Below the pieces are notes generated by a model that was not told where the DNA came from, searched no databases, and saw nothing but the letters and a program-made list of their open reading frames with translations. This document shows, piece after piece, positions 616 to 63,836 of a stretch of 64,000 bases of DNA. The stretch covers positions 51,299-115,298 of the forward strand of contig JACPNJ010000002.1 of assembly GCA_016185545.1 (NCBI GenBank), read 5' to 3'. Positions within the stretch are counted from its first letter, which is position 1. Each line of letters starts with the position of its first letter. Source of the DNA: Candidatus Yanofskybacteria bacterium. Its GTDB lineage: Bacteria > Patescibacteriota > Minisyncoccia > 2-02-FULL-40-12 > IGHO2-01-FULL-4-A. The position numbers and the translations under genes were made by a program.

Positions 616-2685
<2,070 letters not shown>

Positions 2686-10256: not shown

Positions 10257-10822
10257 TTAAGATCTATCTGTCCTGACGTAAAAACATTTATTTCCGTGCA
10301 GGTGTTTTGCGCGCAATTATTCTGGTTTTTAAGCTGAATGGTTAAAGTTGCGGGTGGGATATTCAAAGAAGATTTGTTATTTATATATGTCTTCGGATCC
10401 GGTGGTTCAAAGAATATGTCATTAAATGATGAACGAAATTCCATGTTAGTATTGATTAAAATTTTATTTTCCGTGATCGGGTCGCCCGACTGATAGTTGT
10501 GGGTAGCGACCGAAGAACACGGCCCTGAAACTGGCACTGTTTTGACATAAATAAAATAAGAAGTTGGGTTTACATAATGAAAGCCGTAGCCGCATACCAG
10601 GTTACCCTGATAGCGGCTACCGGATAAAGCAAGGGACTGCGCCCTGCGAATATCCGACAAAACCACGGAGGCCGTTTGGACACGGGCGGTCTTACTTGTG
10701 GGCGATGACCTGAAATTTAAAATTAAAACCACTGAAAAAGTGGCAATAATAGCACTTACAACGAGTAACTCTATTATACTAAACCCGCCGTTCCCTGTAA
10801 TTATACCCCTCTCTTTTTTCAA
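10253..10822 (-). CDS. prepilin-type minor pilin
   Basis: N-terminal GFSIIELLVVSAII motif. Confidence 0.65.
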   Translation of the reverse strand: MKKERGIITGNGGFSIIELLVVSAIIATFSVVLILNFRSSPTSKTARVQTASVVLSDIRRAQSLALSGSRYQGNLVCGYGFHYVNPTSYFIYVKTVPVSGPCSSVATHNYQSGDPITENKILINTNMEFRSSFNDIFFEPPDPKTYINNKSSLNIPPATLTIQLKNQNNCAQNTCTEINVFTSGQIDLK

Positions 10823-10825
10823 CGA

Positions 10826-10905
10826 AGGTGTCAGGTGTCAGGTGTCAGGTGTCAGGTTTAATTTTCTGTAACCTGAAACCTGTAACCTGCAACCTAAAAC
10901 CTAAT
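10826..10905. repeat. GTCAGGT x4 heptamer array plus complementary ACCTGAA/ACCTGTA arm (hairpin)
   Basis: ggtgtcaggtgtcaggtgtcaggtgtcagg ... aacctgaaacctgtaacctgcaacct. Confidence 0.7.
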
Positions 10906-14195: not shown

Positions 14196-14276
14196 ACTAG
14201 GTTCTAGGTTCTAGGTTCTAGGTTCTAGGTTCTAGTTAAATTCAAACTAGAAACTAACAACCAGAAACTAGCAACT
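14196..14276. repeat. AGGTTCT x5 heptamer array plus complementary AGAAACT arm
   Basis: taggttctaggttctaggttctaggttctaggttctag ... aactagaaactaacaaccagaaactagcaact. Confidence 0.7.
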
Positions 14277-18881: not shown

Positions 18882-19068
18882 TCAGGCAGAGTTAGGTTAT
18901 AGGTTATAGGTTATAGGTTTTAGGTTTTAATTATCCGAAAACCAAAAAGACTAACAACCCTCCTTTTATTATAAACTAAGGCGTTGATTTTGTTATGCAC
19001 ATATGCGCCTAGGGTTAGATTTTAGATTTGATTATCTAACACCTATCACCTATAACCTAACACCTAGT
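18882..19068. repeat. AGGTTAT/AGGTTTT heptamer array plus complementary CACCTAT/AACCTAA arm between pilN and pilM
   Basis: ggttataggttataggttataggttttaggtttt ... cacctatcacctataacctaacacctag. Confidence 0.7.
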
Positions 19069-19069
19069 T

Positions 19070-20191
19070 TCAGATTTCTCTCATTGCAAGTCCGATGGCT
19101 AAGGTAAGAGTAGTATTAAGTTCCGACTGTATTTTTTCTAATTCCTTGGGTACAATGAGCCGGGCTGAAGGATTGCCAATGGCCAACGGGAGTCCAAGTT
19201 TGGTTCCAAAATAATTCGCAAAATTAGGCATATTGGCAAGACCGCCAACTAAAATCACTCTGCTAATTTTGATATTTTTAAGTTCTTCGTAACTATGGAT
19301 TGTTTTTTTGGTCTCAAAGGCCATCATATCAATAAGAGAACTCATGGCCTGTTGGATCACATTATTATTCGCGTCTTTAATCCCGAGGCTTCTTTTCAAT
19401 TCTTCGGCCCGCTTTAAACTAATATTCAAGGAGTTGGATATCGTTTTCGTTATTTCGAATCCCCCGATTTCGTAGTTGTGGCCTATTCTCTCATAGCCCC
19501 CATCTACAATCAGGATTGAAGTGCTACGTCCGCCGATATTGATTATGGCAGCCGGACTTAAATCATTGCCCAAAAGCGCTCTTATTAAAGCTGAATTTTC
19601 TAATTCTAAAGCTCGGAGATTCAAACCGGCTAGTTTCATGATATCCCTGTAGCGCTCCGTCTCCTGTTTCGGTACCGCGACAAGAAAAACTTCCACAACT
19701 GGCGGCTTGGCACCGCCGGATATCGGAGGTACGAGATTAGAAGTTGAAATTGATTGATTTAACTTCTGATTTGCTATATTAATTATTGACCAGTCAAGAA
19801 CCACATCATTGATCGGCAGAGGGATATATTTGCGGGCTTCAAACGGGATACTCTTGGCCATGTCTTTTTCTGAAAGGTACGGCATAGTTATTATAGTGGA
19901 AAATGTTGAAAAAGAGGGAATAGATGCTACAGCGTCGCGAGTTTTGATTTTACTGCGCTTAAGAACCTCGCGCATTCCCCATGCTAAGTCCTGACTGGAT
20001 AATTGCGCCGCCCCGCCTGCGGAACGGTTTGCCGCATTTAACGCCTCGTCGACTGATTCAAGCTCAAAAAGGCCGTAATTTTCCAGCTTGAAACGTCCCG
20101 CCTCTTTCGATAATTCTACTATCTTAATAGAAGCCGTACCGATATCTATGCCAAGTTTACTTTTGGGTTTGCCAAAGTCGAAAAAAGACAA
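19070..20191 (-). CDS. pilM: type IV pilus assembly protein, actin-like ATPase fold
   Basis: 373 aa; LGIDIGTASIKIVEL N-terminus. Confidence 0.85.
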   Translation of the reverse strand: MSFFDFGKPKSKLGIDIGTASIKIVELSKEAGRFKLENYGLFELESVDEALNAANRSAGGAAQLSSQDLAWGMREVLKRSKIKTRDAVASIPSFSTFSTIITMPYLSEKDMAKSIPFEARKYIPLPINDVVLDWSIINIANQKLNQSISTSNLVPPISGGAKPPVVEVFLVAVPKQETERYRDIMKLAGLNLRALELENSALIRALLGNDLSPAAIINIGGRSTSILIVDGGYERIGHNYEIGGFEITKTISNSLNISLKRAEELKRSLGIKDANNNVIQQAMSSLIDMMAFETKKTIHSYEELKNIKISRVILVGGLANMPNFANYFGTKLGLPLAIGNPSARLIVPKELEKIQSELNTTLTLAIGLAMREI

Positions 20192-20195
20192 AAAA

Positions 20196-20268
20196 GGTGT
20201 CAGGTGTCAGGTGTCAGGTGTCAGGTTTTTTATGTAACCTGAAACCTATGACCTGTAACCTATTTCAA
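20196..20268. repeat. GTCAGGT heptamer array plus complementary arm, in the divergent pilM/comF intergenic region
   Basis: ggtgtcaggtgtcaggtgtcaggtgtcaggtttttt atgtaacctgaaacctatgacctgtaacct. Confidence 0.7.
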
Positions 20269-21112: not shown

Positions 21113-21987
21113 TCTAAAATGGTTTTGGCAATTTTATTCAATTCTTCGAGTGTAGAAAACTTAATAACAATATTGCCGCCGTTGATGCCGGTTCTGATGA
21201 AAACCGCCGCGCCGAGATTTTTGGACAGATTCTGCTGAAGTTCTTCAAACTTGGACCCCGCTGTTTGCGGCATTTCCCTTCCGGCTGATTTGTGCGCCTT
21301 TGCCGCTCCCTCAAGATCCCGCACCACGATATTGCCGGTAAGGATTTGCTTATACATCTCTCGCTGTTTACTCTCGTCCTTGAAAGCCAAAAGCGTTCGC
21401 GCGTGAGTTCGGCTGATTTTACCCACTCGCAATGCCGCTTTAATATCAGCCGGCAAATCAAGCAGCCTTATGGCATTGGCGACAACTTCGCGGCTTTTGC
21501 CGACTTTATTTGCAATATCTTTCTGGGTCAGCTTAAACTCGCTGGCTAACCTGGCATAAGCCTCGGCTTCTTCAAGCGGATTAAGGTCTTCGCGCTGAAT
21601 ATTTTCAACCAACGCCACCTCTAATTTAAGCCGGCTTTCGTCAAAATTATCTTTCACGATAACCGGCACATGCGGCAATCCAGCCATTTTTGCCGCGCGC
21701 CATCGGCGCTCCCCCGCCAGCAGTTCGTAACTGACATCCAGCCCCCTTTCGGTTTCCTCCTCCATCTTTGTAACAAGCAATGGCTGCAAGATACCGTATT
21801 TCTTGATTGAAGCCGCAAGTTCCTTGAGCCCGTCTTTATCAAAATCACGCCTCGGCTGATTAGCGTTGGGCTTAATTTTATTTATCTCAATATAAAAGAC
21901 GTTGTCCTGAATTTTTGGCGTAACCTTATTTGTCTTAGCCGGTATCAGCGACTCAAGGCCGCGACCCAGACCGAATAACTTCTTCAA
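21109..21987 (-). CDS. parB: chromosome partitioning protein ParB
   Basis: GERRWRAAKMAGL ParB box; HTH; 292 aa. Confidence 0.9.
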   Translation of the reverse strand: MKKLFGLGRGLESLIPAKTNKVTPKIQDNVFYIEINKIKPNANQPRRDFDKDGLKELAASIKKYGILQPLLVTKMEEETERGLDVSYELLAGERRWRAAKMAGLPHVPVIVKDNFDESRLKLEVALVENIQREDLNPLEEAEAYARLASEFKLTQKDIANKVGKSREVVANAIRLLDLPADIKAALRVGKISRTHARTLLAFKDESKQREMYKQILTGNIVVRDLEGAAKAHKSAGREMPQTAGSKFEELQQNLSKNLGAAVFIRTGINGGNIVIKFSTLEELNKIAKTILD

Positions 21988-22056
21988 ATTAGGTTTTAGG
22001 TTTTAGGTTTTAGGTTTTAGGAGTTTATCTAACACCTAAAAACTAACACCTAACAC
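21988..22056. repeat. AGGTTTT x4 heptamer array plus complementary AACACCT arm between parB and parA
   Basis: aggttttaggttttaggttttaggttttagg ... aacacctaaaaactaacacctaacacctagg. Confidence 0.7.
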
Positions 22057-27657: not shown

Positions 27658-28353
27658 ATGCTAGTACAAAAATTCGATAAATTTCTACAATCAGTTGACC
27701 TCAAATCCTATCGTGATCAGTATAGGCCTATTAAAATTGTAGAAATGGATATGCCCAAAGAGGTTCAAGCTATCAATATGCTTTACAAAGTATATTGGGA
27801 CCAAAAGAAATTCTTGTCTTTTGAAGATTTTTACAAAGAGTACTTAAATTCTCTAAAAACAGAAATTGAATCCTTCAGACAAAGAACAACGATGTGTAAA
27901 GATTGTTTTTATCGAGGATTGCCCGCAAGAATTTATCGTACTTGGGCAAGTATTATCACTCAAATCCACGCTGGTTATGTAGCTGAGTCGGTTTTTGGCG
28001 AAGGTACAATTGCGATGTCAGGTGAGCTTGATCATCAAGGAGCTGATTTTCAAGTTAAATATAGAGGGAAGATTTTAAACTACCAAGTTAAAAAGAAATC
28101 ATTTAGTGGAGAAGTGAGGCGTGGTAAGGGTGGAGTTAAAAACAAAATCGATGGAGAATTTATTGATATTAACTATGAAGTTCCAAGTGGTGATTATTTC
28201 GAAAATCCAAAGAAAAAAGATGGCACTGATAAATTACCATACGCCAGGTTTATGGCAAATAAAGAATTAGAAAGATTCCCGAATGGTTTTGTGGTTTTTA
28301 CCCCTTATCCTTTTGAACAAAAGAAAAGAGAGATAGATAACTCTCTAAAATAA
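27658..28353 (+). CDS. hypothetical protein; candidate nuclease partner of the adjacent methyltransferase
   Basis: 231 aa; convergent with the MTase gene with a 9-nt 3' overlap; weak PD-(D/E)xK-like segment ELD...DFQVK; function unverified. Confidence 0.35.
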   Translation: MLVQKFDKFLQSVDLKSYRDQYRPIKIVEMDMPKEVQAINMLYKVYWDQKKFLSFEDFYKEYLNSLKTEIESFRQRTTMCKDCFYRGLPARIYRTWASIITQIHAGYVAESVFGEGTIAMSGELDHQGADFQVKYRGKILNYQVKKKSFSGEVRRGKGGVKNKIDGEFIDINYEVPSGDYFENPKKKDGTDKLPYARFMANKELERFPNGFVVFTPYPFEQKKREIDNSLK

Positions 28354-29868
28354 TTTAGCAACGGACTTTTTATCACCTACCATTTTTTCTGCCAGCCTTA
28401 CATAATCAGGATTAATCTCAAAGCCAATATAAGATTGACCTAATTCTTTGGCCGCCGCGCACTCCGAGCCGGTGCCAACGAAAGGCACTAACACAACACC
28501 ATCTTTTTTCGGCATAGCAGATTTTATCAATTTTTTAGATAATTCAAATGGTTTTTGTGTTGGATGCTTCATTATTTCATGTCCATCATGATTTTTTAGT
28601 TGTCGTGGCTCACATACAGAGTCGCAGGTTTTACACAAAAACCATCTTTCATTCATTCCAGCTCCACCGGCGAGGGCAGGAACTTTGATAACATCTCTTG
28701 GTAAAGCTCCACCCTCGTGGGCTTTATAAACGGTTTCCAAACCGCTACTACTGAATCTCCCCAGTGTTCCTTTTCTTACCTTTCCAGCGGCTCCATTTAG
28801 AAATCCCTCTGTATATGGTTCTCTAACATCATCTCTGTTGAAAACAGGTTTATCTTTCCAAGCGCAAATGATAGCTTCATGGCTTCTTTGCCAAAAATTT
28901 AGAGAGGCAACATTTTTATTAGTGTAATGCCATATAAGCCATCTTTTTTGTATAGGAATTTCAACAGAGAGATACGCTAGAATTTCACTAAAACCATAAA
29001 TAAAAATTGTTCCGTTTGGTTTTAGTGTTCTTATGCTTTCGTTTATCCAACTTTTACACCACTCAACATATTCTCCAAGTTCTCGTTTATCTATATTATT
29101 CCCAAAATCCTTTCCGATATTATAAGGTGGATCAATTATGATAACATCACAACTTTCGTCAGGAAGTTTTCTTAATTCTTGAATTGCGTCTCCCAAAATT
29201 ATTTGATTGAGAGATAATTTCTTATCCTTCTTTATTTCTTTTGTTATCGTTATTTCTTCCGCCTGTAATTCCTCTTCGTTTTTAATAACATCAATAACAA
29301 TTCCTTGAATTTTTATGTCTCGATCCCTCCTTATTATAATTGGCTCAAAAGTTTTATTTGCGGGTTGTAGCCGAATATGTCCTCGTTCTTTATAAAATCT
29401 CTTTAGTGTTGCCTCGTGATTGTCTATTAATGCAACAACTCGCTCGCCGTTTTCTGCAACATCTTGCTGTTTTACCAAAACAACATCTCCATCTTGAATA
29501 TTCTCGTCAATCATACTGTTGCCCATTACGCGCAAAGCGTAAAGATTGCCAGCGCTAGGCAATATATTTTTAGGAACAGCAATAAATTCGTCTTGACGAA
29601 TTGCCTCTATTGGCTCCCCAGCGGCGATAGTTCCTAAAAACGGAATTTTGACCATTGGTTTCTTAGAAGCAATGCTGATGGCACGGGCTTTATTTTCTAT
29701 ATTCCCCAAATAACCACCTTCTTTAAGTTTTGAGATATGAAAATGAACAGTTGAAACAGAGGCGAGTTTAAGTCGTTTTCTAATTTCCTCAAATGAAGGA
29801 GAATACCCCTTCTTTTGTGAGTAACTTTCTATGAAGTCGAGGACTTCTTTTTGGCGCTTTGTGAGCAT
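28345..29868 (-). CDS. LexA (HTH + S24 peptidase) fused to an N4/N6 DNA methyltransferase
   Basis: residues ~1-200 are LexA-like (winged HTH; RVMGNSM Ser; ATLKRF Lys); residues ~210-507 are MTase (motif IV DPPY, motif I FVGTGS); single uninterrupted 507-aa ORF. Confidence 0.75.
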   Translation of the reverse strand: MLTKRQKEVLDFIESYSQKKGYSPSFEEIRKRLKLASVSTVHFHISKLKEGGYLGNIENKARAISIASKKPMVKIPFLGTIAAGEPIEAIRQDEFIAVPKNILPSAGNLYALRVMGNSMIDENIQDGDVVLVKQQDVAENGERVVALIDNHEATLKRFYKERGHIRLQPANKTFEPIIIRRDRDIKIQGIVIDVIKNEEELQAEEITITKEIKKDKKLSLNQIILGDAIQELRKLPDESCDVIIIDPPYNIGKDFGNNIDKRELGEYVEWCKSWINESIRTLKPNGTIFIYGFSEILAYLSVEIPIQKRWLIWHYTNKNVASLNFWQRSHEAIICAWKDKPVFNRDDVREPYTEGFLNGAAGKVRKGTLGRFSSSGLETVYKAHEGGALPRDVIKVPALAGGAGMNERWFLCKTCDSVCEPRQLKNHDGHEIMKHPTQKPFELSKKLIKSAMPKKDGVVLVPFVGTGSECAAAKELGQSYIGFEINPDYVRLAEKMVGDKKSVAKLF

Positions 29869-30833: not shown

Positions 30834-30991
30834 CAGAATAATCGACTGCGTTTTTGCCCTTATCTGACTTCGGCTTTGGTACCTCAAACCACTCGGGATG
30901 CACTTTGTAGATAGCCCTCAATTCTTGTATACTCCTATCAATATCCTTGAATTTAAACCACGTTTTCGGTTCTAACTTGCGGACATCGTCC

Positions 30992-31069
30992 CCGCCAAGT
31001 CGAGATAGGTTATCCCGCTGGAGGAGCGTCGATAACATAAAACCATCTAACGGTGGTTTTATGTTATCG
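30992..31069. repeat. boundary motif M1 (ccgccaagtcgagataggttatcccgctggagga) plus 16-bp perfect-stem hairpin (cgataacataaaacca/tggttttatgttatcg)
   Basis: a second copy of the motif sits at 38787..38820 with a different hairpin. Confidence 0.5.
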
Positions 31070-31122
31070 TTTGTAGTAATAGATTAACCAAATATTTTCT
31101 GATACTATAAAAATAACAACTT

Positions 31123-31222
31123 AGCCTAAACCTGCTTAACGGCTGGCATGGCACCAAACCACCTGCATACCAAACTTGTCGTTTGGCTTCCACACATGTG
31201 GTTATAGAGGAAACTCTATAAG
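31123..31222 (+). repeat. boundary element R1 (agcctaaacct ... ggcatggcac ... cacctgcat-hairpin-cacatgtggt), imperfect direct repeat of R2
   Basis: shared blocks with 38205..38313 read directly; possible structured ncRNA or att-like site. Confidence 0.45.
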
Positions 31223-31695
31223 AGAGCTTCTGCTCTCAGCCAGACGACTTTTTTATTGCTTGTTTAATCGAAAAAAGATCTGATTTTCAAGATCTTGCTG
31301 AAGAATAAAAGAATTACTATGACTTAAGATCCCCATATAGGAATGGATGGTATGGTCAAGTGACTCATAAGACAACGACCCTTGGTTTAAAAGATTCTCC
31401 CCCGAATTTTACCTGGTAGCAGTCCTTTAGTTTTCTCGGGACATCTACGCTGAAATAAAACACGTAGTTTCGTAGTTTTTACTACTTTCCGGCCACGCCA
31501 CTTCTTATAGCCAGGGCCATAAGAACTCCGGTGGATATCAAAAAGAGGAGGTTCGTAAGATTAAACCAGCCTGAGCCGGGCCCAATCTCTATTAACAAAA
31601 CTCCATGACATTATCACATAAAATACCCAGCCATAAAAGGTCTGGTAAAATTCTTCTTTAGGCTGTATATTTATATGTAAAAGTCCAATCTCACT

Positions 31696-32523
31696 ATGCC
31701 GTTCGAAGCCTATAAAATCTACGAAGAATACGAGCCGGACAAATTTAAAACATCAACCCAGAAAAAGGTTGAGCAGGCTTTAGATACCGCTAAAAAAGAA
31801 GGGCTGGTACCGGAGGGCAAAGAGATTAACATCGAGTTCGACGAGGCAAGAGAGATATTCGGCAAAGATTTTCTAGGTCCGGAAGCTATCAAGACCACAT
31901 ACGGAATAGAACTTACCCCGGATGAATTGCAAGAAATTGAGAATATACCATTTACCAGAGAAGAATTAGAACAAGCCAAACAACTGGGCATGATGTTAGT
32001 TCTTCGAGTGCCAAATATAGGCGAGGGCAAGGAAGCCAAACCTCTAACCATTGATCGAATCCGTGAGAAGTTTTCTGGCGGTGATACTTTTGGCGATCCC
32101 AAGAAAAAGAAGAAGAAAATGTTTTATCGAAGCAAAGGTGATGGGTGGTTTGATAAGGAAAAGTTTGCTCTCGAAGGAACTCCCAAGCTTGGCTGGGGCC
32201 TAGTAATGAAATCTGTCTTGCCTGACTCACTGAGCAAGAATTGGGATCAACAAGAGGAAGTACTAAAAAACTGGGCTAAGCAAAATAATATTGATCCGGC
32301 GTTAGTTAAACGCAGGACTCCTGTAGAAATTGCCTATGATACATTTCTCTACTATGGAGAGAATAAAGAAACTCTCTTAGAAGATAAGTGGGACTGGTCA
32401 GGCGTGCAGTCTTCCGGCGGCTACTTCGTCTTCGTTGGCGGCTTCGACTCGGGCGGTCTCTTCGTCAGCTACGATTCCCGCGACAATGCGGGTTCGAATC
32501 TCGGTGTCTGCCCCTCTCGGTAG
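31696..32523 (+). CDS. cassette paralog P1 (275 aa) with a hypervariable GC-rich C-terminal region
   Basis: first ~110 nt identical in all three paralogs; conserved end LGVCPSR; variable region at 32413..32502. Confidence 0.7.
   Translation: MPFEAYKIYEEYEPDKFKTSTQKKVEQALDTAKKEGLVPEGKEINIEFDEAREIFGKDFLGPEAIKTTYGIELTPDELQEIENIPFTREELEQAKQLGMMLVLRVPNIGEGKEAKPLTIDRIREKFSGGDTFGDPKKKKKKMFYRSKGDGWFDKEKFALEGTPKLGWGLVMKSVLPDSLSKNWDQQEEVLKNWAKQNNIDPALVKRRTPVEIAYDTFLYYGENKETLLEDKWDWSGVQSSGGYFVFVGGFDSGGLFVSYDSRDNAGSNLGVCPSR
32413..32502 (+). other. candidate DGR variable region (VR1)
   Basis: A-depleted, GC-rich 90-nt block; differs from VR2/VR3 only at codon positions 1-2 of NNC/NNT codons. Confidence 0.55.
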
Positions 32524-32590
32524 TTTCGCCTTGGGCGCTTGGATGCCTTGATCCTTATTGATCCCTTGGGGTATTCGAAAAAAAATTTAA
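32503..32590 (+). repeat. conserved post-VR element (IMH-like): ggtgtctgcccctctcggtag tttcgccttggg.gcttggat.ccttgat.cttattg
   Basis: about 80% identical after all three paralogs, including the non-coding part. Confidence 0.5.
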
Positions 32591-32629
32591 GACTGGTAAA
32601 ATCTTTATATAACTTGTAACATTTATTAT

Positions 32630-34315
32630 ATGTCTAACTCAAAAGAATCACTTCCCCCAATGCCAAATATGCCCACTACTCCTGAACGAATCATCGAGGA
32701 GAAGGGCATCGATAAAACAAAGAAGAAGGAAAAACTTTCTCCAGAGCAGCTTGAAGCTAGAGTCCAAGAACTTATGGACTTATCGGCCGCTCGAGCCGAA
32801 GCTTCTAAGCATATTCGTGAGTCTTGGGGCGGTTTGACCAAAAGCGAGCGAGAAGAACTGGCAGAGAAGGGAGATGATGCCACAGCAGCTCAATTCGACG
32901 CACTCAAAGTTGATCCGGAGCTGGCAGAATTTTCTGAAAATGTCCTTGCTGAATACGATAAGCGTATTCAAGAGCTTGGCAGCAACCCCAAGGTCATGGA
33001 GGCCTATAATGAACGCTTTGAAGGAATGAAAGACGCCTTAGCTAAAGTTCTCGAGTACGAACATCTCCATAAAGAGCTTGATGCAATCATCAGCAGTGAA
33101 CAGAAACTTTGTCTGATGTATGAAAAGGTCGGACGTTCGCCTGGGCCGATTGAGCGAACCAAACTGACTGATCTGGTAAAACGTAAAGAAGAATTACAAA
33201 AAGAAATAAACGGTTTTAAATTGGATTCGGCATCGATCAATATGCTTCGACGCCGAGAGGTTCGGGGTATGCAGCGAGATTTGGAGCGTTACAACTTTGC
33301 TGAAACTGAATCCCGCACCGAACTCATACGAGAAGTCTTGCCTGACTTGCTTCATGGCGCACCGATTCTGTTTCAAGGCGAGACTGGCTCTGGTAAAACC
33401 CAGTTGGCTAAATATATTTCTCATAGATTCCTTGGCCATGAAGTTTCGCCGATTTCTATCTCTGAACAAATAAAAGAGTCCCAAATCATGGGTCGGGTCA
33501 CCTTGAAAGAAGGTGCCACCGATTTTTTGTATTCTGAATTAGTCAAAAGCATGAAGGAGGGTCGCCCAGTAATTATGGATGAAATCAATTTAATGCCCCA
33601 TGAATTTCAGGGCATTCTCAACGAGATTTTCCAACTACGAATTGGCAGCACTTGGAAACACCCATCCACTGGCGAATCAATTAAGATTGCTCCCGGTTTT
33701 GTGATCTTTGCTACCGCCAACCTTAAGTCAGAGCGCTACAAACAACGTTACGAACTTGATGTTGCTACTCTTCGTCGTTTCATCGGTGGTGCCGGTGCGC
33801 GTGAAATCCACTACTTAGATTTAGGCAAGAAAAGCAAAGAGGGAGAATATATCGCACCCGAGACTCTTAAGATTCTAGCCTCGGTATTGGCAGATCGAAA
33901 CGGCAATATTACTTGGAGCGAACAAGAATCGCCTCAAAAACTTGATGAGCTAAAGAGATTTGTGGGTGCTTGCCGTAAAATCCAAGAAGACTTTACCTTG
34001 AGCGTCCGAGAAGGTTCTGAAGACTCATTGGCTCGAGGCGACAAGCTGGCTTTCAAAGAACTGGTCATCACCCTCAAGGATCAGATTGAGATTATGAAAG
34101 CATGGAAAGCGTCTGGTTTTGTCGAACCGCTAGAAAGTATTGTTCTGCGAGAATTCTTCAGAAAAGCTGAAATCAGCGGTCGAGCCGCCAAAGACCGAGA
34201 AAATATGGTCAAAGTATTTATGGCCAATAAGTTTTTCCAAGATACTAAACCTGAAGATTTTAATATCCAAGGCCTATCGGCTAAAACAGTTCGCCAATGG
34301 CAAGGAAAAGAATAA
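32630..34315 (+). CDS. MoxR-like AAA+ ATPase with an N-terminal coiled-coil extension
   Basis: Walker A GETGSGKT; Walker B VIMDEIN; sensor FATANL; ATLRRF. Confidence 0.8.
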   Translation: MSNSKESLPPMPNMPTTPERIIEEKGIDKTKKKEKLSPEQLEARVQELMDLSAARAEASKHIRESWGGLTKSEREELAEKGDDATAAQFDALKVDPELAEFSENVLAEYDKRIQELGSNPKVMEAYNERFEGMKDALAKVLEYEHLHKELDAIISSEQKLCLMYEKVGRSPGPIERTKLTDLVKRKEELQKEINGFKLDSASINMLRRREVRGMQRDLERYNFAETESRTELIREVLPDLLHGAPILFQGETGSGKTQLAKYISHRFLGHEVSPISISEQIKESQIMGRVTLKEGATDFLYSELVKSMKEGRPVIMDEINLMPHEFQGILNEIFQLRIGSTWKHPSTGESIKIAPGFVIFATANLKSERYKQRYELDVATLRRFIGGAGAREIHYLDLGKKSKEGEYIAPETLKILASVLADRNGNITWSEQESPQKLDELKRFVGACRKIQEDFTLSVREGSEDSLARGDKLAFKELVITLKDQIEIMKAWKASGFVEPLESIVLREFFRKAEISGRAAKDRENMVKVFMANKFFQDTKPEDFNIQGLSAKTVRQWQGKE

Positions 34316-35134
34316 ATGCCATTTGAAGCCTACAAAATCTACGAAGAATACGAACCGGATAAATTCAAGACCTCAACCCAGAAAAAGGTTGAGCAAGCTC
34401 TCGATACCGCTAAAAAAGAAGGACTAGTTCCGGAGGCAAAAGAGGCCCATGTTGAATTTGAAGAAGCCCAAGAAATATTTGGGCTAGATTTTCTTGGTCC
34501 CGAATCTGTTGGGACAACTTTTGGTGTTGAGTTTTCCCAAGAAGAGCAAAATCAGATAGAAAACATCCCATTTACTCGTGAAGAATTAGAAAAAGCCAAA
34601 GAGCTTGGAATGATGCTGGTTTTGCGAGTGCCACGAGTTGGCAAGGACAAGACTGCTAAGCCCCTTACGATCAAGCAAATGCGAGGTGCATTCAAAGGAG
34701 AAGATAAACTTGGCGATCCTAAAAAGAAAAAATCCCAAATCTTCTTCGATCAGGATTGGTATAACAAGGAAGAATTCGCCACCAAAGACACTCCATCCCT
34801 TGGTTGGGGTCTTGTTACGAAGAAAATACTAGAAGAATCAAGAAGTAAAAACTGGGATCAGCAACAGGAAGTACTTAAAAAGTGGGCAGAAGAAAATGGC
34901 ATTGACCCCACTTCAATTAAACGCCGAACTCCAGTTGAGATAGCTTACGATACACTTCTTTATTATGGCTCGAACAAGGAGTCATTGTTAACAGATACCT
35001 GGGACTGGTCCGGCGTGCAGTCATCCGACGGCGGCTTCGTCGGCGTTGGCTACTTCGACTCGGTCGGTCTCAGCGTCTACGACAATTCCCGCGGCAATGC
35101 GGATTCGGATCTCGGTGTCTGCCCCTCCCGGTAG
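34316..35134 (+). CDS. cassette paralog P2 (272 aa) with a hypervariable C-terminal region
   Basis: start abuts the MoxR stop; same N-terminus and LGVCPSR end as P1 and P3. Confidence 0.7.
   Translation: MPFEAYKIYEEYEPDKFKTSTQKKVEQALDTAKKEGLVPEAKEAHVEFEEAQEIFGLDFLGPESVGTTFGVEFSQEEQNQIENIPFTREELEKAKELGMMLVLRVPRVGKDKTAKPLTIKQMRGAFKGEDKLGDPKKKKSQIFFDQDWYNKEEFATKDTPSLGWGLVTKKILEESRSKNWDQQQEVLKKWAEENGIDPTSIKRRTPVEIAYDTLLYYGSNKESLLTDTWDWSGVQSSDGGFVGVGYFDSVGLSVYDNSRGNADSDLGVCPSR
35034..35123 (+). other. candidate DGR variable region (VR2)
   Basis: see VR1. Confidence 0.55.
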
Positions 35135-35214
35135 TTTCGCCTTGGGAGCTTGGATCCCTTGATTCTTATTGGTTCCATTGGGTATTCGAAAAATTTTTAT
35201 ATAACTACACCTAA

Positions 35215-37209
35215 ATGCCAGAATCATTTCCCATAAATAGAATAGAAACTCCTCAAGACGAACCTAAACCAGAGGTTCCAAAGCAGGAAAGCGAAATTGA
35301 TGCTCAAGCAGTTGAGGAATTTTTAAATAAGGAAACTGAAATACTAGGAGCTTACGGGTTACGAGGTGATATTACACTGGAACGAGGGAATGGCGGTTGG
35401 GCATTTGATTTTCAGAATCGAAAGTTAATTTACGATCCAAAGTTCTTCATAGAACGTGGCTATAGCCTCCAGGAAACTCTCTTTGCCACCACTCACGAAC
35501 TCATGGCTCACTACGGTGAGCTTATGCGTGATCCGGAGCTTGTCTTAAAGGAAGCTAAGAGATATAGCGCAAAAGGTCACCTCCATCTTTTATACAATAT
35601 CTTTGAAGATGTGTTGGGCAACAGACGTATTGTTGCCGAATTGCCGTTCTTAGAAGAAACTCGCGAATCGCTTTATCGAGAAAAGATGTTTCCACCGACT
35701 GACTACACTGATAAATCTTCTCATGTTCAGTTTACTTATGGTTTTATTCGCCAGATGATGGTGCCTGGAGAGGCAGTACAACTTGGGCCGGAGGCGCAGG
35801 CCGCTTTGGATAAGCTGAGAAGCTTTGGTTCAGATAAAATAGATATCCTTGATCTAGTTACTACACCAACCATTGACCCCAAAGATCGCTTTCAAATAAT
35901 GCGAACAATTGTTGAACCTATTTACCGAGAACTCTATGAAAAGGATTTAGAAGAAGAAAAGAAAAGCGGCAAAAGCAAGGATCAGGGCGAAGGGTCACCC
36001 ACGGATACTCAAGTTTCTGATAAACCTCAACAAGGCCAAGGTTCTGGCCAAGATAAGAAAAAATGGTGGCAAAGAAAAAAGGAAACACCCCAAGAAGGAA
36101 AAGGTAAAGAGGAACAACCTGGCAAAGGTGGGGATAAAAAATCCAGTGAACGAGCCGCTAGAGAAGCGGCTGAAAAGAAATTTAAGAAAGAATATAAAAC
36201 CTATCACGACGGTCATCCGGAACCCATAACTCATGCCGAAGAAAAGGAGATCAAGAAGTTGATGGAAGAAATAGTTGCTAAAAAGGGCGGACAACCTACT
36301 CTAGAGCAAAATATTCTTGAGGAATGGGCTCGTGAGCATGGAGTCAGCGCCGAGGATGTTCTTGGCTATCGCAAAGAGTATGAAGAGATCGCTCCCCTAG
36401 TAGCTGAGCTAAGGGAAGTTTTTAAGAAGATCATTGCCAGGAGATTAAAAGAACGATGGCAGTTTTCGCCTCAGCTCAAAACAGAAGGCGAAGAACTAGC
36501 CGAAGATACGCTAGTCGACTCTTCAATTGAATCTCGAGCCGGAGGCCAGCCAAGGGCATTTAGAGAGATTGAGAGACATAAACGAGAGCAGGAGGGCTAC
36601 GGCATGCTTGATATGTCTTTGGTTAATGATTTATCCGGTTCTATGAATGACGGGGATGGCAGTAAGCTTGAGATGGACCGCAAGAGCAAACTCCTATTCT
36701 TGGAATCTCTGGCCGATTTTCAAAAAGAAATAGAAGAAGCCGAATTTGAAAGTGGTGTTTCGTTGGGTCTTCAAGTTAGAACCGAAACCAGAGCTTTTGG
36801 CGATTTTGGAGATGTAGAATTAAAGTCGTTATCACCTGATCTTTCTGAAAAAGATAGAATTGGGATTTGGAAAAAAATGCATAAAGCTGGTGGCGGTACG
36901 CCGGATTATCTTTCTCTTGAAGAAGTTTTAAACTCAATTACTCCTGAACAAGAAAAGGAGTTAAGAGAGAAATTAAGAAGAAAAGTTATCGTCGTACTTT
37001 CTGATGGTGAAAGCCAAGATTCAGGGAAAGTTCAGGCTGTTTTACTCCAGTTAAGGAATAAGGGGGTTATTTGTTTAGGATTGGGCATGACTGAATCAGG
37101 TCAAGCTGTTAAAGAAACATATAAACCGGATGCCGAAGTAATAACAGATATCAAGGCGTTGCCTCAAGCGGTTCAAAAAGTTATTCTAAAATATACCCAA
37201 GATTTGTAA
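35215..37209 (+). CDS. zincin-like (HExxH) + low-complexity linker + von Willebrand factor A domain protein
   Basis: HELMAH motif near residue 95; Lys/Glu/Gly-rich linker; MIDAS DxSGS (DLSGSMND) and VVLSDGES. Confidence 0.75.
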   Translation: MPESFPINRIETPQDEPKPEVPKQESEIDAQAVEEFLNKETEILGAYGLRGDITLERGNGGWAFDFQNRKLIYDPKFFIERGYSLQETLFATTHELMAHYGELMRDPELVLKEAKRYSAKGHLHLLYNIFEDVLGNRRIVAELPFLEETRESLYREKMFPPTDYTDKSSHVQFTYGFIRQMMVPGEAVQLGPEAQAALDKLRSFGSDKIDILDLVTTPTIDPKDRFQIMRTIVEPIYRELYEKDLEEEKKSGKSKDQGEGSPTDTQVSDKPQQGQGSGQDKKKWWQRKKETPQEGKGKEEQPGKGGDKKSSERAAREAAEKKFKKEYKTYHDGHPEPITHAEEKEIKKLMEEIVAKKGGQPTLEQNILEEWAREHGVSAEDVLGYRKEYEEIAPLVAELREVFKKIIARRLKERWQFSPQLKTEGEELAEDTLVDSSIESRAGGQPRAFREIERHKREQEGYGMLDMSLVNDLSGSMNDGDGSKLEMDRKSKLLFLESLADFQKEIEEAEFESGVSLGLQVRTETRAFGDFGDVELKSLSPDLSEKDRIGIWKKMHKAGGGTPDYLSLEEVLNSITPEQEKELREKLRRKVIVVLSDGESQDSGKVQAVLLQLRNKGVICLGLGMTESGQAVKETYKPDAEVITDIKALPQAVQKVILKYTQDL

Positions 37210-37210
37210 T

Positions 37211-38038
37211 ATGCCATTTGAAGCCTACAAAATATACGAAGAATACGAACCAGATAAATACAAAACCTCAACCCAGAAAAAGGTTGAGCAGGCCTTGGAT
37301 ACTGCTAAAAAAGAGGGCCTGATACCCGAAGCCAAAGAAGTTAATATCGAATTCGACGAAGCCAAAGAAATATTTGGCAAAGACTTTCTCGGCCCCGAAG
37401 CAATTCAAACTACTTTCGGCGTAGAATTAACACCAGACGAGCTCAAAGAAGTAGAAGACGTTCCCTTTACCAGAGAAGAACTTGAGCAAGCAAAACAACT
37501 CGGCATGATGCTCGTTTTAAGAGTACCTAGACTTGGCGAAGGCAAAACAGAGCGTCCTCTAACAATTGATTCTGCCAGAGAACTATTTACCAAGGGCGAT
37601 TCCTTGGGTGATCCTAAGAAAAAGAAACAAAAAGTATTCTATAGTAAAAAGGGCGAGAGTTGGTACAACAATGAAAAGTTTGTGACCCAAGACACTCCTA
37701 AACTCGGCTGGGGTCTAGTCATGAAATCGGTATTACCAGATTCGCTAAGCAAGAATTGGGACCAGCAGGAAGAAGTTCTCAAGAAGTGGGCAAAGGATAA
37801 TAACATAGACCCTGCCCTAGTTAAAAGAAGAACTCCTGTAGAAATTGCCTACGATACCCTTATATATTACGGCGAGAATAAAGAATCATTGCTAAAGAAT
37901 AGATACGACTGGTCTGGCGTGCAGTCTTCCGGCGGCGACTTCGTCTTCGTTGGCCACTTCGACTCGGACGGTCTCCTCGTCAGCCACGATTCCCGCGGCA
38001 TTGCGCATTCGTATCTCGGTGTCTGCCCCTCTCGGTAG
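37211..38038 (+). CDS. cassette paralog P3 (275 aa) with a hypervariable C-terminal region
   Basis: ATG 2 nt after the vWA stop; same architecture as P1 and P2. Confidence 0.7.
   Translation: MPFEAYKIYEEYEPDKYKTSTQKKVEQALDTAKKEGLIPEAKEVNIEFDEAKEIFGKDFLGPEAIQTTFGVELTPDELKEVEDVPFTREELEQAKQLGMMLVLRVPRLGEGKTERPLTIDSARELFTKGDSLGDPKKKKQKVFYSKKGESWYNNEKFVTQDTPKLGWGLVMKSVLPDSLSKNWDQQEEVLKKWAKDNNIDPALVKRRTPVEIAYDTLIYYGENKESLLKNRYDWSGVQSSGGDFVFVGHFDSDGLLVSHDSRGIAHSYLGVCPSR
37928..38017 (+). other. candidate DGR variable region (VR3)
   Basis: see VR1. Confidence 0.55.
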
Positions 38039-38204
38039 TTTTGTAGGGTGCTTGGGAGCTTGGACCCCTTGATTCTTATTGGTTCTCTTGGGTATTCGAA
38101 AAAATTTTAAGATTCTCTAGTTGGTATCTCATTTTACTAATTAATTGACCTAAGCTAAGGTTGGACGCAATGGTCGTTTTTTGCTATTATTCTCTTAACA
38201 ATTA

Positions 38205-38313
38205 AGCCTAAACCTAGAGATTATTCTATAGGCATGGCACTAAATATACCCACCTGCATTCTGAACCCGTCGTTCAGCTCCATGCAGGTGGTCTATATCC
38301 GAAAGGGTATAGG
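38205..38313 (+). repeat. boundary element R2: nested hairpin CCACCTGCAT[tCTGAACccgtcGTTCAGctc]CATGCAGGTGG, followed by GNRA-tetraloop hairpins
   Basis: imperfect direct repeat of R1; inverted repeats read directly. Confidence 0.45.
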
Positions 38314-38388
38314 AAGGCGAAAGCCTTCGGCTAGCGGCGGGCTTTGAGTTTAAAGAAGCCCCCCGTTGGTTAAGAAATCCACCTGCGT

Positions 38389-38646: not shown

Positions 38647-38786
38647 AAAATTCACTGAATTGAGTTATACCTAACTTAATTAAAAACTTGAAATTGTTAA
38701 TGTTCACGCTGGAGCCGCTCGGATTTCTGCCCGCCACCCACGCCGCCTTCGGCGGCGAAATGCGTTCGAGCTAATTCAAGAATACA

Positions 38787-38870
38787 CCGCCAGGTTGAGA
38801 TAGGCTATCACGCCGGAGGAAGATCGAATAAAACGCGCAATTAAAAACGGCTTCAGCCGTTTTTAATTGC
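38787..38870. repeat. boundary motif M2 (ccgccaggttgagataggctatcacgccggagga) plus terminator hairpin gcaattaaaaacggc-ttca-gccgtttttaattgc
   Basis: direct repeat of M1; a GC-rich UUCG-loop hairpin (gccgccttcggcggc) lies just upstream at ~38742. Confidence 0.5.
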
Positions 38871-55318: not shown

Positions 55319-55395
55319 TCAGGTTACAGGTTACAGGTTACAGGTTACAGGTTTTTACTGGCACCTGAACCCTGACACCTGAAACCTAGTTTATA
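55319..55395. repeat. AGGTTAC x4 heptamer array plus complementary CCTGAAC/CCTGACA arm
   Basis: caggttacaggttacaggttacaggttacagg ... cacctgaaccctgacacctgaaacctag. Confidence 0.7.
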
Positions 55396-63416: not shown

Positions 63417-63764
63417 TCAATTAACAATTTTAGCTCCCAGCCGCTTCCCTCCCAATAAATGTATGTGCAAATGCGGAACCAGCTGGCCACCGTGTTCACC
63501 ATGATTTATTATCAAGCGGAATCCTTTTTCTTCCAGGCCGAGTTTTTTGGCGACTTTACTCGTAGCCATCAATAGTTCGCCCAATAATTTTACATCGTCT
63601 TGCGTGGTGGCGCAGATATCCGTCAGGTGTTTTTTGGAAATAATCAAAATGTGTACCGGCGCTTGCGGATGAATATCGTTGATTGCCAGCCAATCGTCAT
63701 CTTCCGCTACCACATCAGCCGGCAGTTCTTTGTTTAAAATTTTGCAGAAAACATCTTGAATCAA
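63417..63764 (-). CDS. HIT-family (histidine triad) hydrolase
   Basis: HLHIHLLGG histidine triad. Confidence 0.85.
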   Translation of the reverse strand: MIQDVFCKILNKELPADVVAEDDDWLAINDIHPQAPVHILIISKKHLTDICATTQDDVKLLGELLMATSKVAKKLGLEEKGFRLIINHGEHGGQLVPHLHIHLLGGKRLGAKIVN

Positions 63765-63765
63765 G

Positions 63766-63836
63766 GTTACAGGTTACAGGTTACAGGTTACAGGGAAATT
63801 TTTCTTACCTGGCCCCTGAAACCTGACACCTGAAAC
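63766..63836. repeat. AGGTTAC x4 heptamer array plus complementary arm (acctggcccctgaaacctgacacctgaaacct)
   Basis: read directly; the 3' arm shares acctggcccctg with the glyA intragenic insertion. Confidence 0.7.

What the first reader, a model, noticed from the sequence alone, without database searches (positions are those of the whole stretch)
32503..38100. Conserved GC-rich element immediately 3' of each variable region (IMH/hairpin-like), extending into non-coding DNA
After each of the three stop codons, ~60-70 nt are conserved at about 80% identity: tttcgccttggg(a/c)gcttggat(c/g)ccttgat(t/c)cttattg(g/a)t(t/c)cc.ttgggtattcgaaaaa. Non-coding conservation this strong, directly abutting the hypervariable blocks, is what DGR targets need: an IMH (initiation of mutagenic homing) plus a downstream structured element to prime cDNA integration. 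It would also fit recombination sites used for cassette shuffling. The copy after P3 contains an extra 13-nt insertion (gtagggtgcttgg).
Basis: seen in the sequence. Interest (0 to 1): 0.6.

Follow-up and report, generated by a model that had tools for sequence, protein, structure and literature searches.

The report
TTG-repeat signal beside retroelement-diversified gene ends
Each of three hypervariable genes ends with a strongly conserved 60-base run of short TTG repeats that marks the sites rewritten by a diversity-generating retroelement, although this genome has deleted the retroelement's own enzyme and template.

Summary
Three about 59-nt copies lie at 32530-32588, 35141-35199 and 38051-38109, 81-93% identical, with 0 expected by chance.

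They follow the variable regions (VRs) of three paralogous DGR target genes in a Patescibacteria genome. Orthologous loci carry RT, avd and a template repeat (TR). TR-VR identity stops 3-9 nt after the stop codon. So the true IMH is the last ~25 coding nt plus about 6 nt, and the element is VR-specific flank.

It is not a hairpin. It is an array of five TTG cores (CTTGG/CTTGA) spaced 8-10 nt apart, 49-51 nt long, ending in TTCGAAAAATTTT.

Synonymous sites between orthologues are saturated (39% identity), yet the array is 83% identical between orthologues and 92% between paralogues. Identity falls to 25% beyond +60.

All 21 matches to the array pattern in public collections abut a VR end. At least 4 TTG occur in 52/56 VR flanks and 0/16 TR flanks. 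Related RTs with unrelated targets show the same arrays.

Best reading: a direct-repeat recipient-site marker for mutagenic homing, analogous in role to the BPP-1 stem-loop. This is inferred, not shown.

In this window a 1.5-kb deletion removed RT, avd and TR, so the copies are relics.

The parts
32530..32588 (+). Array copy E1: CTTGGGCGCTTGGATGCCTTGATCCTTATTGATCCCTTGGGGTATTCGAAAAAAAATTT. TTG cores lie at +2, 10, 19, 29 and 37. The tail overlaps a promoter-like site (TCGAAA-16-TGnTAAAAT, 32575-32602) upstream of the AAA_5 gene.
35141..35199 (+). Array copy E2, 3' of P2. TTG cores lie at +2, 10, 19, 29 and 38.
38051..38109 (+). Array copy E3, 3' of P3. It is preceded by the 12-nt linker TTTTGTAGGGTG (38039-38050).
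32499..32529 (+). IMH of VR1: an invariant, GC-rich, TR-identical segment that includes the TAG stop (32521-32523) and TTTCGC.
35110..35140 (+). IMH of VR2 (stop at 35132-35134).
38014..38044 (+). IMH of VR3 (stop at 38036-38038). Its TTTTGT matches the TR-type (IMH*) variant of relatives.
32404..32498 (+). Mutable part of VR1 (adenine-templated positions) at the 3' end of target gene P1 (31696-32523).
35015..35109 (+). Mutable part of VR2 in target gene P2 (34316-35134).
37919..38013 (+). Mutable part of VR3 in target gene P3 (37211-38038).
31259..31393 (-). Remnant of the DGR reverse transcriptase (last 45 codons only). The deletion junction lies at about 31388. Relative to L013, 1506 bp carrying RT codons 1-305, avd and TR are missing.
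32630..34315 (+). AAA_5 (MoxR-like) ATPase gene between targets 1 and 2. This position is conserved in orthologous cassettes.
35215..37209 (+). VWA-domain protein gene between targets 2 and 3. This position is conserved in orthologous cassettes.

Best explanation
The element is the target-side (recipient) cis signal of a Patescibacteria-type diversity-generating retroelement.

Anatomy:
- The VR ends in a GC-rich IMH that is identical, or nearly so, to the end of the TR.
- Directly after it the target DNA, but never the TR, carries an array of four to seven (C)TTG(G/A) cores at a lineage-specific spacing.
- In the window's family there are five cores spaced 8, 9, 10 and 8-9 nt apart. The array runs 49-51 nt from CTTGGG to TTCGAAA and closes with an A/T tract.

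Proposed mechanism (inferred):
- The array distinguishes recipient VR from donor TR.
- It raises the efficiency of integrating the adenine-mutagenised cDNA at the IMH. This is the role played in phage BPP-1 by the GC-rich stem-loop.
- It acts through a repeated sequence motif, probably read by a multimeric factor or acting on the exposed sense strand, rather than through a hairpin.

Shown here: position, VR-specificity, selection, and generality across the RT clade.

Not shown: any effect on homing, or the identity of a binding partner.

In this window the DGR core has been deleted, so the three copies are recent relics.
For: - TR-VR identity ends 3-9 nt after the stop codon. After that, every VR carries the array and every TR carries a strong hairpin followed by antisense avd. 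This holds for 37 distinct VR flanks and 6 TR flanks in the window's family, for the distant subfamily, and for five further DGRs.
- In L009 the IMH and IMH* are identical through TAGTTTCGCCT, so only downstream sequence can tell VR from TR. Wu et al. anticipated this situation (PMC5758913).
- Selection: 4-fold degenerate sites are 0.39 identical between orthologues and 0.37 between paralogues. The array is 0.83 and 0.92 identical respectively. The next 60 nt are 0.40 identical between paralogues.
- The conserved block is sharply bounded and one-sided. Paralogue identity is 0.68 just 5' of the VR, 0.95 in the IMH, 0.86-0.94 in the array, and 0.25 from +60.
- All 21 public matches to an array-only pattern abut a VR end.
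- The array occurs with unrelated target proteins, which give no significant BLAST hit to P1. It also occurs where no co-directional gene follows: L050, L051 VR1, L053 and L056.
- At least 4 TTG in the first 60 nt: 52 of 56 VR flanks, 0 of 16 TR flanks, 3.5% of random windows. Of 371 long ORFs in the loci, 44 have at least 5 TTG after the stop, and only 3 of those 44 are not DGR targets.
- BPP-1 has the GAAA hairpin and no TTG in the corresponding 60 nt.
Against: - There is no experiment and no identified binding partner.
- No complementarity of 10 nt or more was found between the array and the RT/avd/TR region.
- The stop-to-array linker varies from 6 to about 58 nt in the window's family. 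Any mechanism must tolerate that.
- The tail of the element overlaps promoter-like signals for the next gene after targets 1 and 2, so part of the conservation could be regulatory.
- Higher identity within a genome than between genomes could partly reflect gene conversion.
- The VR flanks counted are not phylogenetically independent. About seven deep lineages carry the signal.
- Paul et al. 2017 on CPR DGRs could not be read, so prior description cannot be excluded.
Confidence: 0.58

Rival explanations
1. It is an expression signal of the target operon: an internal promoter or UP-like element for the next gene, or a binding platform on the mRNA for an RNA-binding protein. On this view it is conserved for regulation and unrelated to homing.
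For: - A promoter-like site (TCGAAA-16-TGnTAAAAT) overlaps the tail of E1.
- After target 2, TTGG.. followed by 16-17 nt and TATAAC recurs in relatives (read).
- The element lies within the operon transcript, upstream of real terminators after target 3.
Against: - The same array follows the last target, where no conserved gene follows.
- It follows VRs that face a convergent gene or the TR/avd: L050, L051 VR1, L053 and L056.
- Four of the five TTG cores lie upstream of any -35 position.
- It tracks VRs across unrelated target families.
- It is specific to DGR targets among 371 ORF 3' flanks.
Confidence: 0.17
2. It is only the 3' part of the duplicated gene unit, kept similar by gene conversion seeded in the TR-homogenised VRs, with no function of its own.
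For: - Paralogous copies within a genome are more alike (0.92) than orthologues (0.83).
- L009 and L010 show that recombination between the copies happens.
Against: - Orthologues keep 83% identity while synonymous sites are saturated at 39%.
- Array length is fixed at 49-51 nt in 32 copies.
- Homogenisation does not extend 5' of the VR (0.68) and stops abruptly at +60.
- Analogous arrays of different sequence occur in distant DGR lineages with single targets.
Confidence: 0.08
3. The copies are site-specific recombination sites used to shuffle or mobilise the target cassettes, for example by the large serine recombinases encoded nearby.
For: - Serine recombinase genes lie near several loci.
- The DGR module sits between two LOOT RNA copies in the window and in L013.
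Against: - Gene order target-AAA_5-target-VWA-target is the same in all complete cassettes.
- The array has no inverted-repeat core.
- It also occurs in DGRs with a single target and no recombinase within the flanks shown in the gene tables.
Confidence: 0.03
4. It is a structured RNA or DNA element (hairpin or cruciform, terminator, or an sRNA).
For: - Some relatives carry GC hairpins with GAA, GGA or AGA triloops next to the array: L011 VR3, L022-L025, L052 and L053.
- These resemble the GRA-loop hairpins of nanoarchaeal DGRs (PMC4372165).
Against: - The three window copies fold no better than shuffles on either strand.
- There is no consensus structure or covariation.
- No terminator-like site lies within the array; one weak 5-pair match (38023-38038) spans the IMH and stop codon of P3 just upstream.
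- No Rfam match at E<=1.
Confidence: 0.04

Closest known systems
IMH plus GC-rich inverted repeat (stem-loop/cruciform) downstream of VR in the Bordetella phage BPP-1 DGR (Guo et al. 2011, PMC3240598)
   Same: Position immediately 3' of the VR/IMH. Present at the recipient VR and absent at the donor TR. Variable distance to the VR (4-34 bp in Guo et al.; 6-58 nt here). Presumed role in target recognition.
   Different: BPP-1 has an 8-bp GC stem with a GAAA loop and no TTG repeats. The window element has no inverted repeat. It is a direct-repeat array with fixed internal spacing and an A/T tract. Function is proven for BPP-1 and only inferred here.
GRA-triloop hairpins of nanoarchaeal (DUSEL4) DGRs (Paul et al. 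2015, PMC4372165)
   Same: Some relatives of this cassette carry GC hairpins with GAA, GGA or AGA loops beside the VR.
   Different: The three window copies have no such hairpin. In relatives the hairpin is an optional extra before or after the TTG array. It is not the conserved feature.
DGRs whose IMH and IMH* are identical (Wu et al. 2018, PMC5758913)
   Same: That survey notes that in such DGRs recognition 'would have to extend downstream'. L009 is such a case.
   Different: No downstream motif was defined there. Only 34% of DGRs had inverted repeats.
Arrays of short direct repeats bound by multimeric proteins (iterons, transposase end-binding repeats)
   Same: Several copies of a short core at fixed spacing, with conserved cores and variable spacers.
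   Different: This is a resemblance in form only. No binding protein is known, and the 7-10 nt period is shorter than a helical turn.

Membership tests
DGR variable region (target side) | Differs from a template repeat almost only at template adenines | tested here: met
   No TR lies in the window. Against the TR of close relative L010, 13 of 16, 12 of 18 and 13 of 15 mismatches are at TR adenines (25 A in 128 nt); for VR1 and VR3 the remainder lie at the 5' edge or in the IMH/IMH* tail, while VR2 also has three internal non-adenine differences. Orthologous loci have TR-VR pairs.
DGR (complete element in this window) | DGR-type reverse transcriptase, accessory Avd and TR encoded with the target | tested here: not met
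   Only the last 45 RT codons remain (31259-31393, minus strand). A 1506-bp deletion relative to L013 removed the rest of RT, avd and TR. Orthologues L004, L006, L010, L011 and L013 have all three. A trans-acting DGR elsewhere in the genome cannot be excluded.
IMH (initiation of mutagenic homing) | GC-rich, non-mutated segment at the 3' end of the VR that is repeated, with few differences, at the end of the TR (IMH*) | tested here: met
   This applies to 32499-32529, 35110-35140 and 38014-38044, not to the array itself. IMH versus IMH* reads TTTCGC versus TTTTGT (L004, L006, L010) and TAGTTTCG versus CAGTATCG (L011, L013).
IMH (as a label for the 60-nt element) | Homology to the 3' end of the TR | tested here: not met
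   From CTTGGG onward there is no similarity to any TR flank.
DGR hairpin/cruciform | 7-10 bp GC-rich inverted repeat with a 4-nt GRNA (or 3-nt GRA) loop within about 34 bp of the VR | tested here: not met
   Folds of the three copies on both strands give z +0.05 to +0.96. There is no conserved pairing within the array. Such hairpins are present only in some relatives.
Intrinsic terminator | GC-rich stem-loop followed by a T run | tested here: not met
   No terminator-like site lies within the three arrays; the only nearby match is a weak 5-pair site at 38023-38038 in the IMH/stop of P3. Real terminators lie further downstream after target 3 in relatives.
Any Rfam RNA family | Covariance-model match | tested here: not met
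   No match on the arrays at gathering score or at E<=1.
Functional homing signal | Deletion or mutation lowers retrohoming | not testable with these tools
   This needs a reconstituted DGR and a reporter assay.

The most novel reading that the evidence does not exclude
DGRs of the large Patescibacteria RT clade (avd divergent from RT, TR followed by antisense avd) recognise their targets through a sequence- and spacing-specific array of TTG repeats, not through a hairpin. If true, the array alone would predict remote targets and could be transplanted to retarget these DGRs.
Probability: 0.35. Interest if true: 0.75.

Novelty: new variant of a known kind. Interest (0 to 1): 0.58.

Why it matters
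How the mutagenised cDNA finds and enters its target is still described as incompletely understood (PMC12875486). The only defined target-side elements are the IMH and a GC stem-loop, and the stem-loop is missing from about two thirds of DGRs (PMC5758913).

A second, structurally different target-side signal is therefore useful. Here it is strongly selected, strictly VR-specific, and shared across a very large and little-studied DGR clade. It gives a concrete, testable handle on target recognition. It offers a simple marker for finding remote or orphan targets in CPR genomes. It is also a candidate part for retargeting DGR-based mutagenesis tools.

For this window specifically, the cassette turns out to be a fossil: frozen variable regions whose writer has been deleted.

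Tried and rejected
- **TR in the window.** BLAST of each VR plus flank against the window finds only the three copies.
- **RNA-guided pairing.** No shared or complementary k-mers of 10 nt or more link the array to the RT/avd/TR region consistently across genomes. The CCAAG in antisense avd (Avd motif MLGGW) is not conserved where arrays are (read).
- **Coding extension by TAG read-through.** The frame after TAG is open in the three window copies. However, linkers of 9, 10, 11 and 14 nt and an in-frame TAG in relatives break it, and substitutions are not biased to third positions (read).
- **Hairpin, cruciform or sRNA.** Rejected.
- **TaqI/TCGA link.** The TTCGAA in the tail is TCCGAA in several relatives.
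- **Literature.** Paul et al. 2017 is not held. LOOT is not described in the main text of Weinberg et al. 2017.
- **L055.** The contig ends before any VR.
Full report
**What is in the window**

The region holds three paralogous genes: P1 (31696-32523), P2 (34316-35134) and P3 (37211-38038). They encode proteins of 272-275 aa. An AAA_5 ATPase gene (32630-34315) and a VWA-domain gene (35215-37209) sit between them.

Homologues are confined to Patescibacteria: Yanofskybacteria, Parcubacteria and relatives.

The last ~120 nt of each gene differ in the NNC pattern typical of DGR variable regions. After each stop codon a conserved block follows.

- The repeat finder reports three copies at 32530-32588, 35141-35199 and 38051-38109, 81-93% identical.
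- A degenerate pattern of the block, allowing three mismatches, matches only there in the window, with 0 expected from shuffles.
- The block is T-rich rather than GC-rich (42-48% GC).
- The 'insertion' after P3 is a 6-nt longer linker, and that longer form is the usual one in close relatives.

**Where the template is**

The window has no fourth copy of the VR.

Orthologous cassettes do have one. L004 (GCA_028868355), L006 (GCA_001795735), L010, L011 and L013 carry an RVT_1 reverse transcriptase, a bAvd gene overlapping it divergently, and a TR, all directly upstream of target 1. L009 carries the same avd and TR; its RT is found only by tblastn and target 1 is missing.

In the window only the last 45 RT codons remain (31259-31393, minus strand). 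Alignment with L013 shows two collinear blocks:

- window 31145-31387 = L013 2413-2656 (91% identity);
- window 31389-31674 = L013 4163-4448 (91% identity).

A clean 1506-bp deletion therefore removed RT codons 1-305, avd and TR. Contigs from three sequencing runs carry the same RT remnant upstream of P1. The longest (7.8 kb) differs from the window by 2 nt, neither in a VR.

Against the TR of L010, 13 of 16, 12 of 18 and 13 of 15 VR mismatches fall on TR adenines. So the VRs were written by a DGR and are now frozen, unless a trans-acting element exists elsewhere in the genome.

**IMH versus the element**

TR and VR stay identical through TCTCGGTGTCTGCCCCTCYCGGTAG and 3-9 nt beyond. There are small IMH/IMH* differences:

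- TTTCGC versus TTTTGT in L004, L006 and L010;
- TAGTTTCG versus CAGTATCG in L011 and L013;
- none in L009.

After that the two sides diverge completely. Every VR continues into the conserved block. Every TR continues into a strong hairpin (AGGCCTTC..GAAGGCCT) and then the antisense of avd.

The IMH in the classical sense is therefore the ~31 nt at 32499-32529, 35110-35140 and 38014-38044.

**Anatomy of the element**

- In 32 distinct copies from about 13 genomes, the distance from the first CTTGGG to TTCGAAA is 49-51 nt.
- The consensus is CTTGGG..CTTGG...CCTTGAT.CTT.TTG.T..CTTGG...TTCGAAA(A)nTTTT. Information is concentrated on the TTG cores.
- In the window the cores lie at +2, 10, 19, 29 and 37/38, giving spacings of 8, 9, 10 and 8-9. 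Five TTG are found where about 1.6-1.9 are expected from composition (P 0.004-0.011).
- The linker between stop and array varies: 6, 9-12, 14, 30 and about 58 nt. The long linkers are GC hairpins.
- No stable or conserved secondary structure exists. No terminator-like site lies within the array (one weak 5-pair match sits in the IMH of P3), and there is no Rfam match.

**Selection**

| Sites compared | Orthologues | Paralogues in one genome |
|---|---|---|
| 4-fold degenerate sites (non-VR part of the genes) | 0.39 | 0.37 |
| Array | 0.83 | 0.92 |
| Next 60 nt | 0.60 | 0.40 |

Synonymous sites are saturated, so the array is under purifying selection.

Along the paralogue alignment, identity is:

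- 0.68 just 5' of the VR;
- 0.77-0.88 in the VR;
- 0.95 in the IMH;
- 0.86-0.94 over the array;
- 0.25 from +60 onward.

The block is sharply bounded and one-sided. That argues against simple gene conversion spreading out from the VR. The excess similarity within genomes is compatible with conversion or with co-evolution with a genome-specific reader.

**Specificity and generality**

- An array-only pattern found 1 viral and 15 metagenomic loci with 21 occurrences. All lie directly 3' of a VR end. Two of them (the same sequence) are separated from the VR end by a 58-nt hairpin insert.
- A distant subfamily (L022-L027; target ~27-33% (tblastn) and RT 43-48% identical) has a different array: four (C)TTTGA units with TTG at exactly +5, +12, +19 and +27 in 12 of 12 flanks. 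It is often followed by a CCGCCGAAGGCGG hairpin and an A/T tract. Again it is absent from the TR side.
- Five further DGRs were chosen only by RT similarity (52-56% identity). Their targets give no significant match to P1 (L050, L051, L052) or only a remote one (L053); the L056 target was not compared. All carry CTTG(R) arrays 3' of the VR and none 3' of the TR. Several face a convergent gene.
- Overall, at least 4 TTG occur in the first 60 nt of 52 of 56 VR flanks, 0 of 16 TR flanks and 3.5% of random windows.
- Of 371 long ORFs in the loci, 44 have at least 5 TTG after the stop. Only 3 of those are not DGR targets.
- BPP-1, read as a control, has its GAAA stem-loop and no TTG.

**Interpretation**

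The best-supported reading is that the array is the recipient-site signal of this DGR clade. It would do the job of the BPP-1 stem-loop: marking VR against TR and promoting cDNA integration at the IMH.

The logic is strongest where IMH equals IMH* (L009). Wu et al. noted that recognition must extend downstream in such cases.

How it acts is unknown. I found no RNA complementarity. A multimeric protein reader, or an effect on the exposed sense strand during replication, is conjecture. The second idea is prompted by the replication dependence reported in PMC12875486.

The main rival is a regulatory role. The tail overlaps promoter-like signals. But the arrays follow terminal targets and targets with a convergent neighbour, and they track VRs across unrelated operons.

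**Novelty**

The papers I could read describe only the IMH and inverted repeats. I found no description of a direct-repeat array. The key CPR survey (Paul et al. 2017) was not available.

I class it as a new variant of a known kind of element. In this particular window it is a relic of a deleted DGR.

Noticed in passing
window 31123-31237 and 38205-38328 (+); L013 2389-2505 and 11005-11125; L009 10994-11116; L016 11524-11645; L006 5843-5964: Two LOOT RNA (RF03000) copies in direct orientation bracket the whole DGR module in the window and in L013. The upstream copy scores near the threshold (50-51 bits) and the downstream copy 80-84 bits. Single copies lie next to related cassettes. This may mark an island inserted at a LOOT gene, or a functional link between LOOT and these DGRs.
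   Followed up: partly
window ~30990-31070 and ~38775-38870 (+): A second repeated non-coding motif (CCGCCArGTyGAGATAGGyTATCmCGCyGGAGGA...) is followed each time by a strong terminator hairpin. There is no Rfam match at E<=1. It looks like the 3' end of an undescribed small RNA.
   Followed up: partly
window 2108-2147, 10820-10859, 14197-14236, 18892-18931, 20189-20228, 21975-22028, 55319-55358, 63762-63801 and others: Short tandem arrays of 7-nt units (AGGTTAT, AGGTTTT, AGGTTAC or GGTGTCA, 4-5 units) recur in many intergenic gaps across the window, on both strands (families D4-D6).
   Followed up: no
window 27658-28353 (+) and 28345-29868 (-): A TaqI-type restriction endonuclease gene sits next to an unusual fusion protein: LexA DNA-binding domain + S24 peptidase + N6/N4 DNA methylase. 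Methylase genes also neighbour the related DGR loci.
   Followed up: no
L010 7097-10828; L009 4582-10828: Cassette variants exist. L010 has a target-1-like gene joined to the target-2 flank, and the AAA_5 gene is lost. L009 lacks target 1. Both look like deletions by recombination between the repeated VR+array copies.
   Followed up: partly
L006 8081-9659 and all related loci (L050-L056): The core architecture is conserved. avd overlaps the RT start divergently. The TR lies beyond the avd stop on the RT strand. The DGR RNA between TR and RT is therefore antisense avd, and the hairpin after the TR sits just past the avd stop.
   Followed up: partly
L009 3544-4596 (-): tblastn finds a full-length RT (83% identity to L006), yet no gene was called there and two small ORFs were called on the opposite strand. 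Whether this RT is intact was not checked.
   Followed up: no
window 31696-38038 and orthologues: The three diversified proteins are always interleaved with a MoxR-like AAA_5 ATPase and a VWA protein. This suggests the variable proteins work with an ATPase/VWA pair. The target model is confident (pLDDT 84) but has only weak FGE/C-type-lectin-like structural matches.
   Followed up: partly
L019 8036 and 10693: In a relative with a truncated RT (only residues 1-203 detectable), the two arrays differ in length and one has lost the TTCGAAAA tail. This is a single case, consistent with decay after loss of the DGR. The window's own three arrays are the least alike among the genomes compared (0.82-0.94).
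   Followed up: partly
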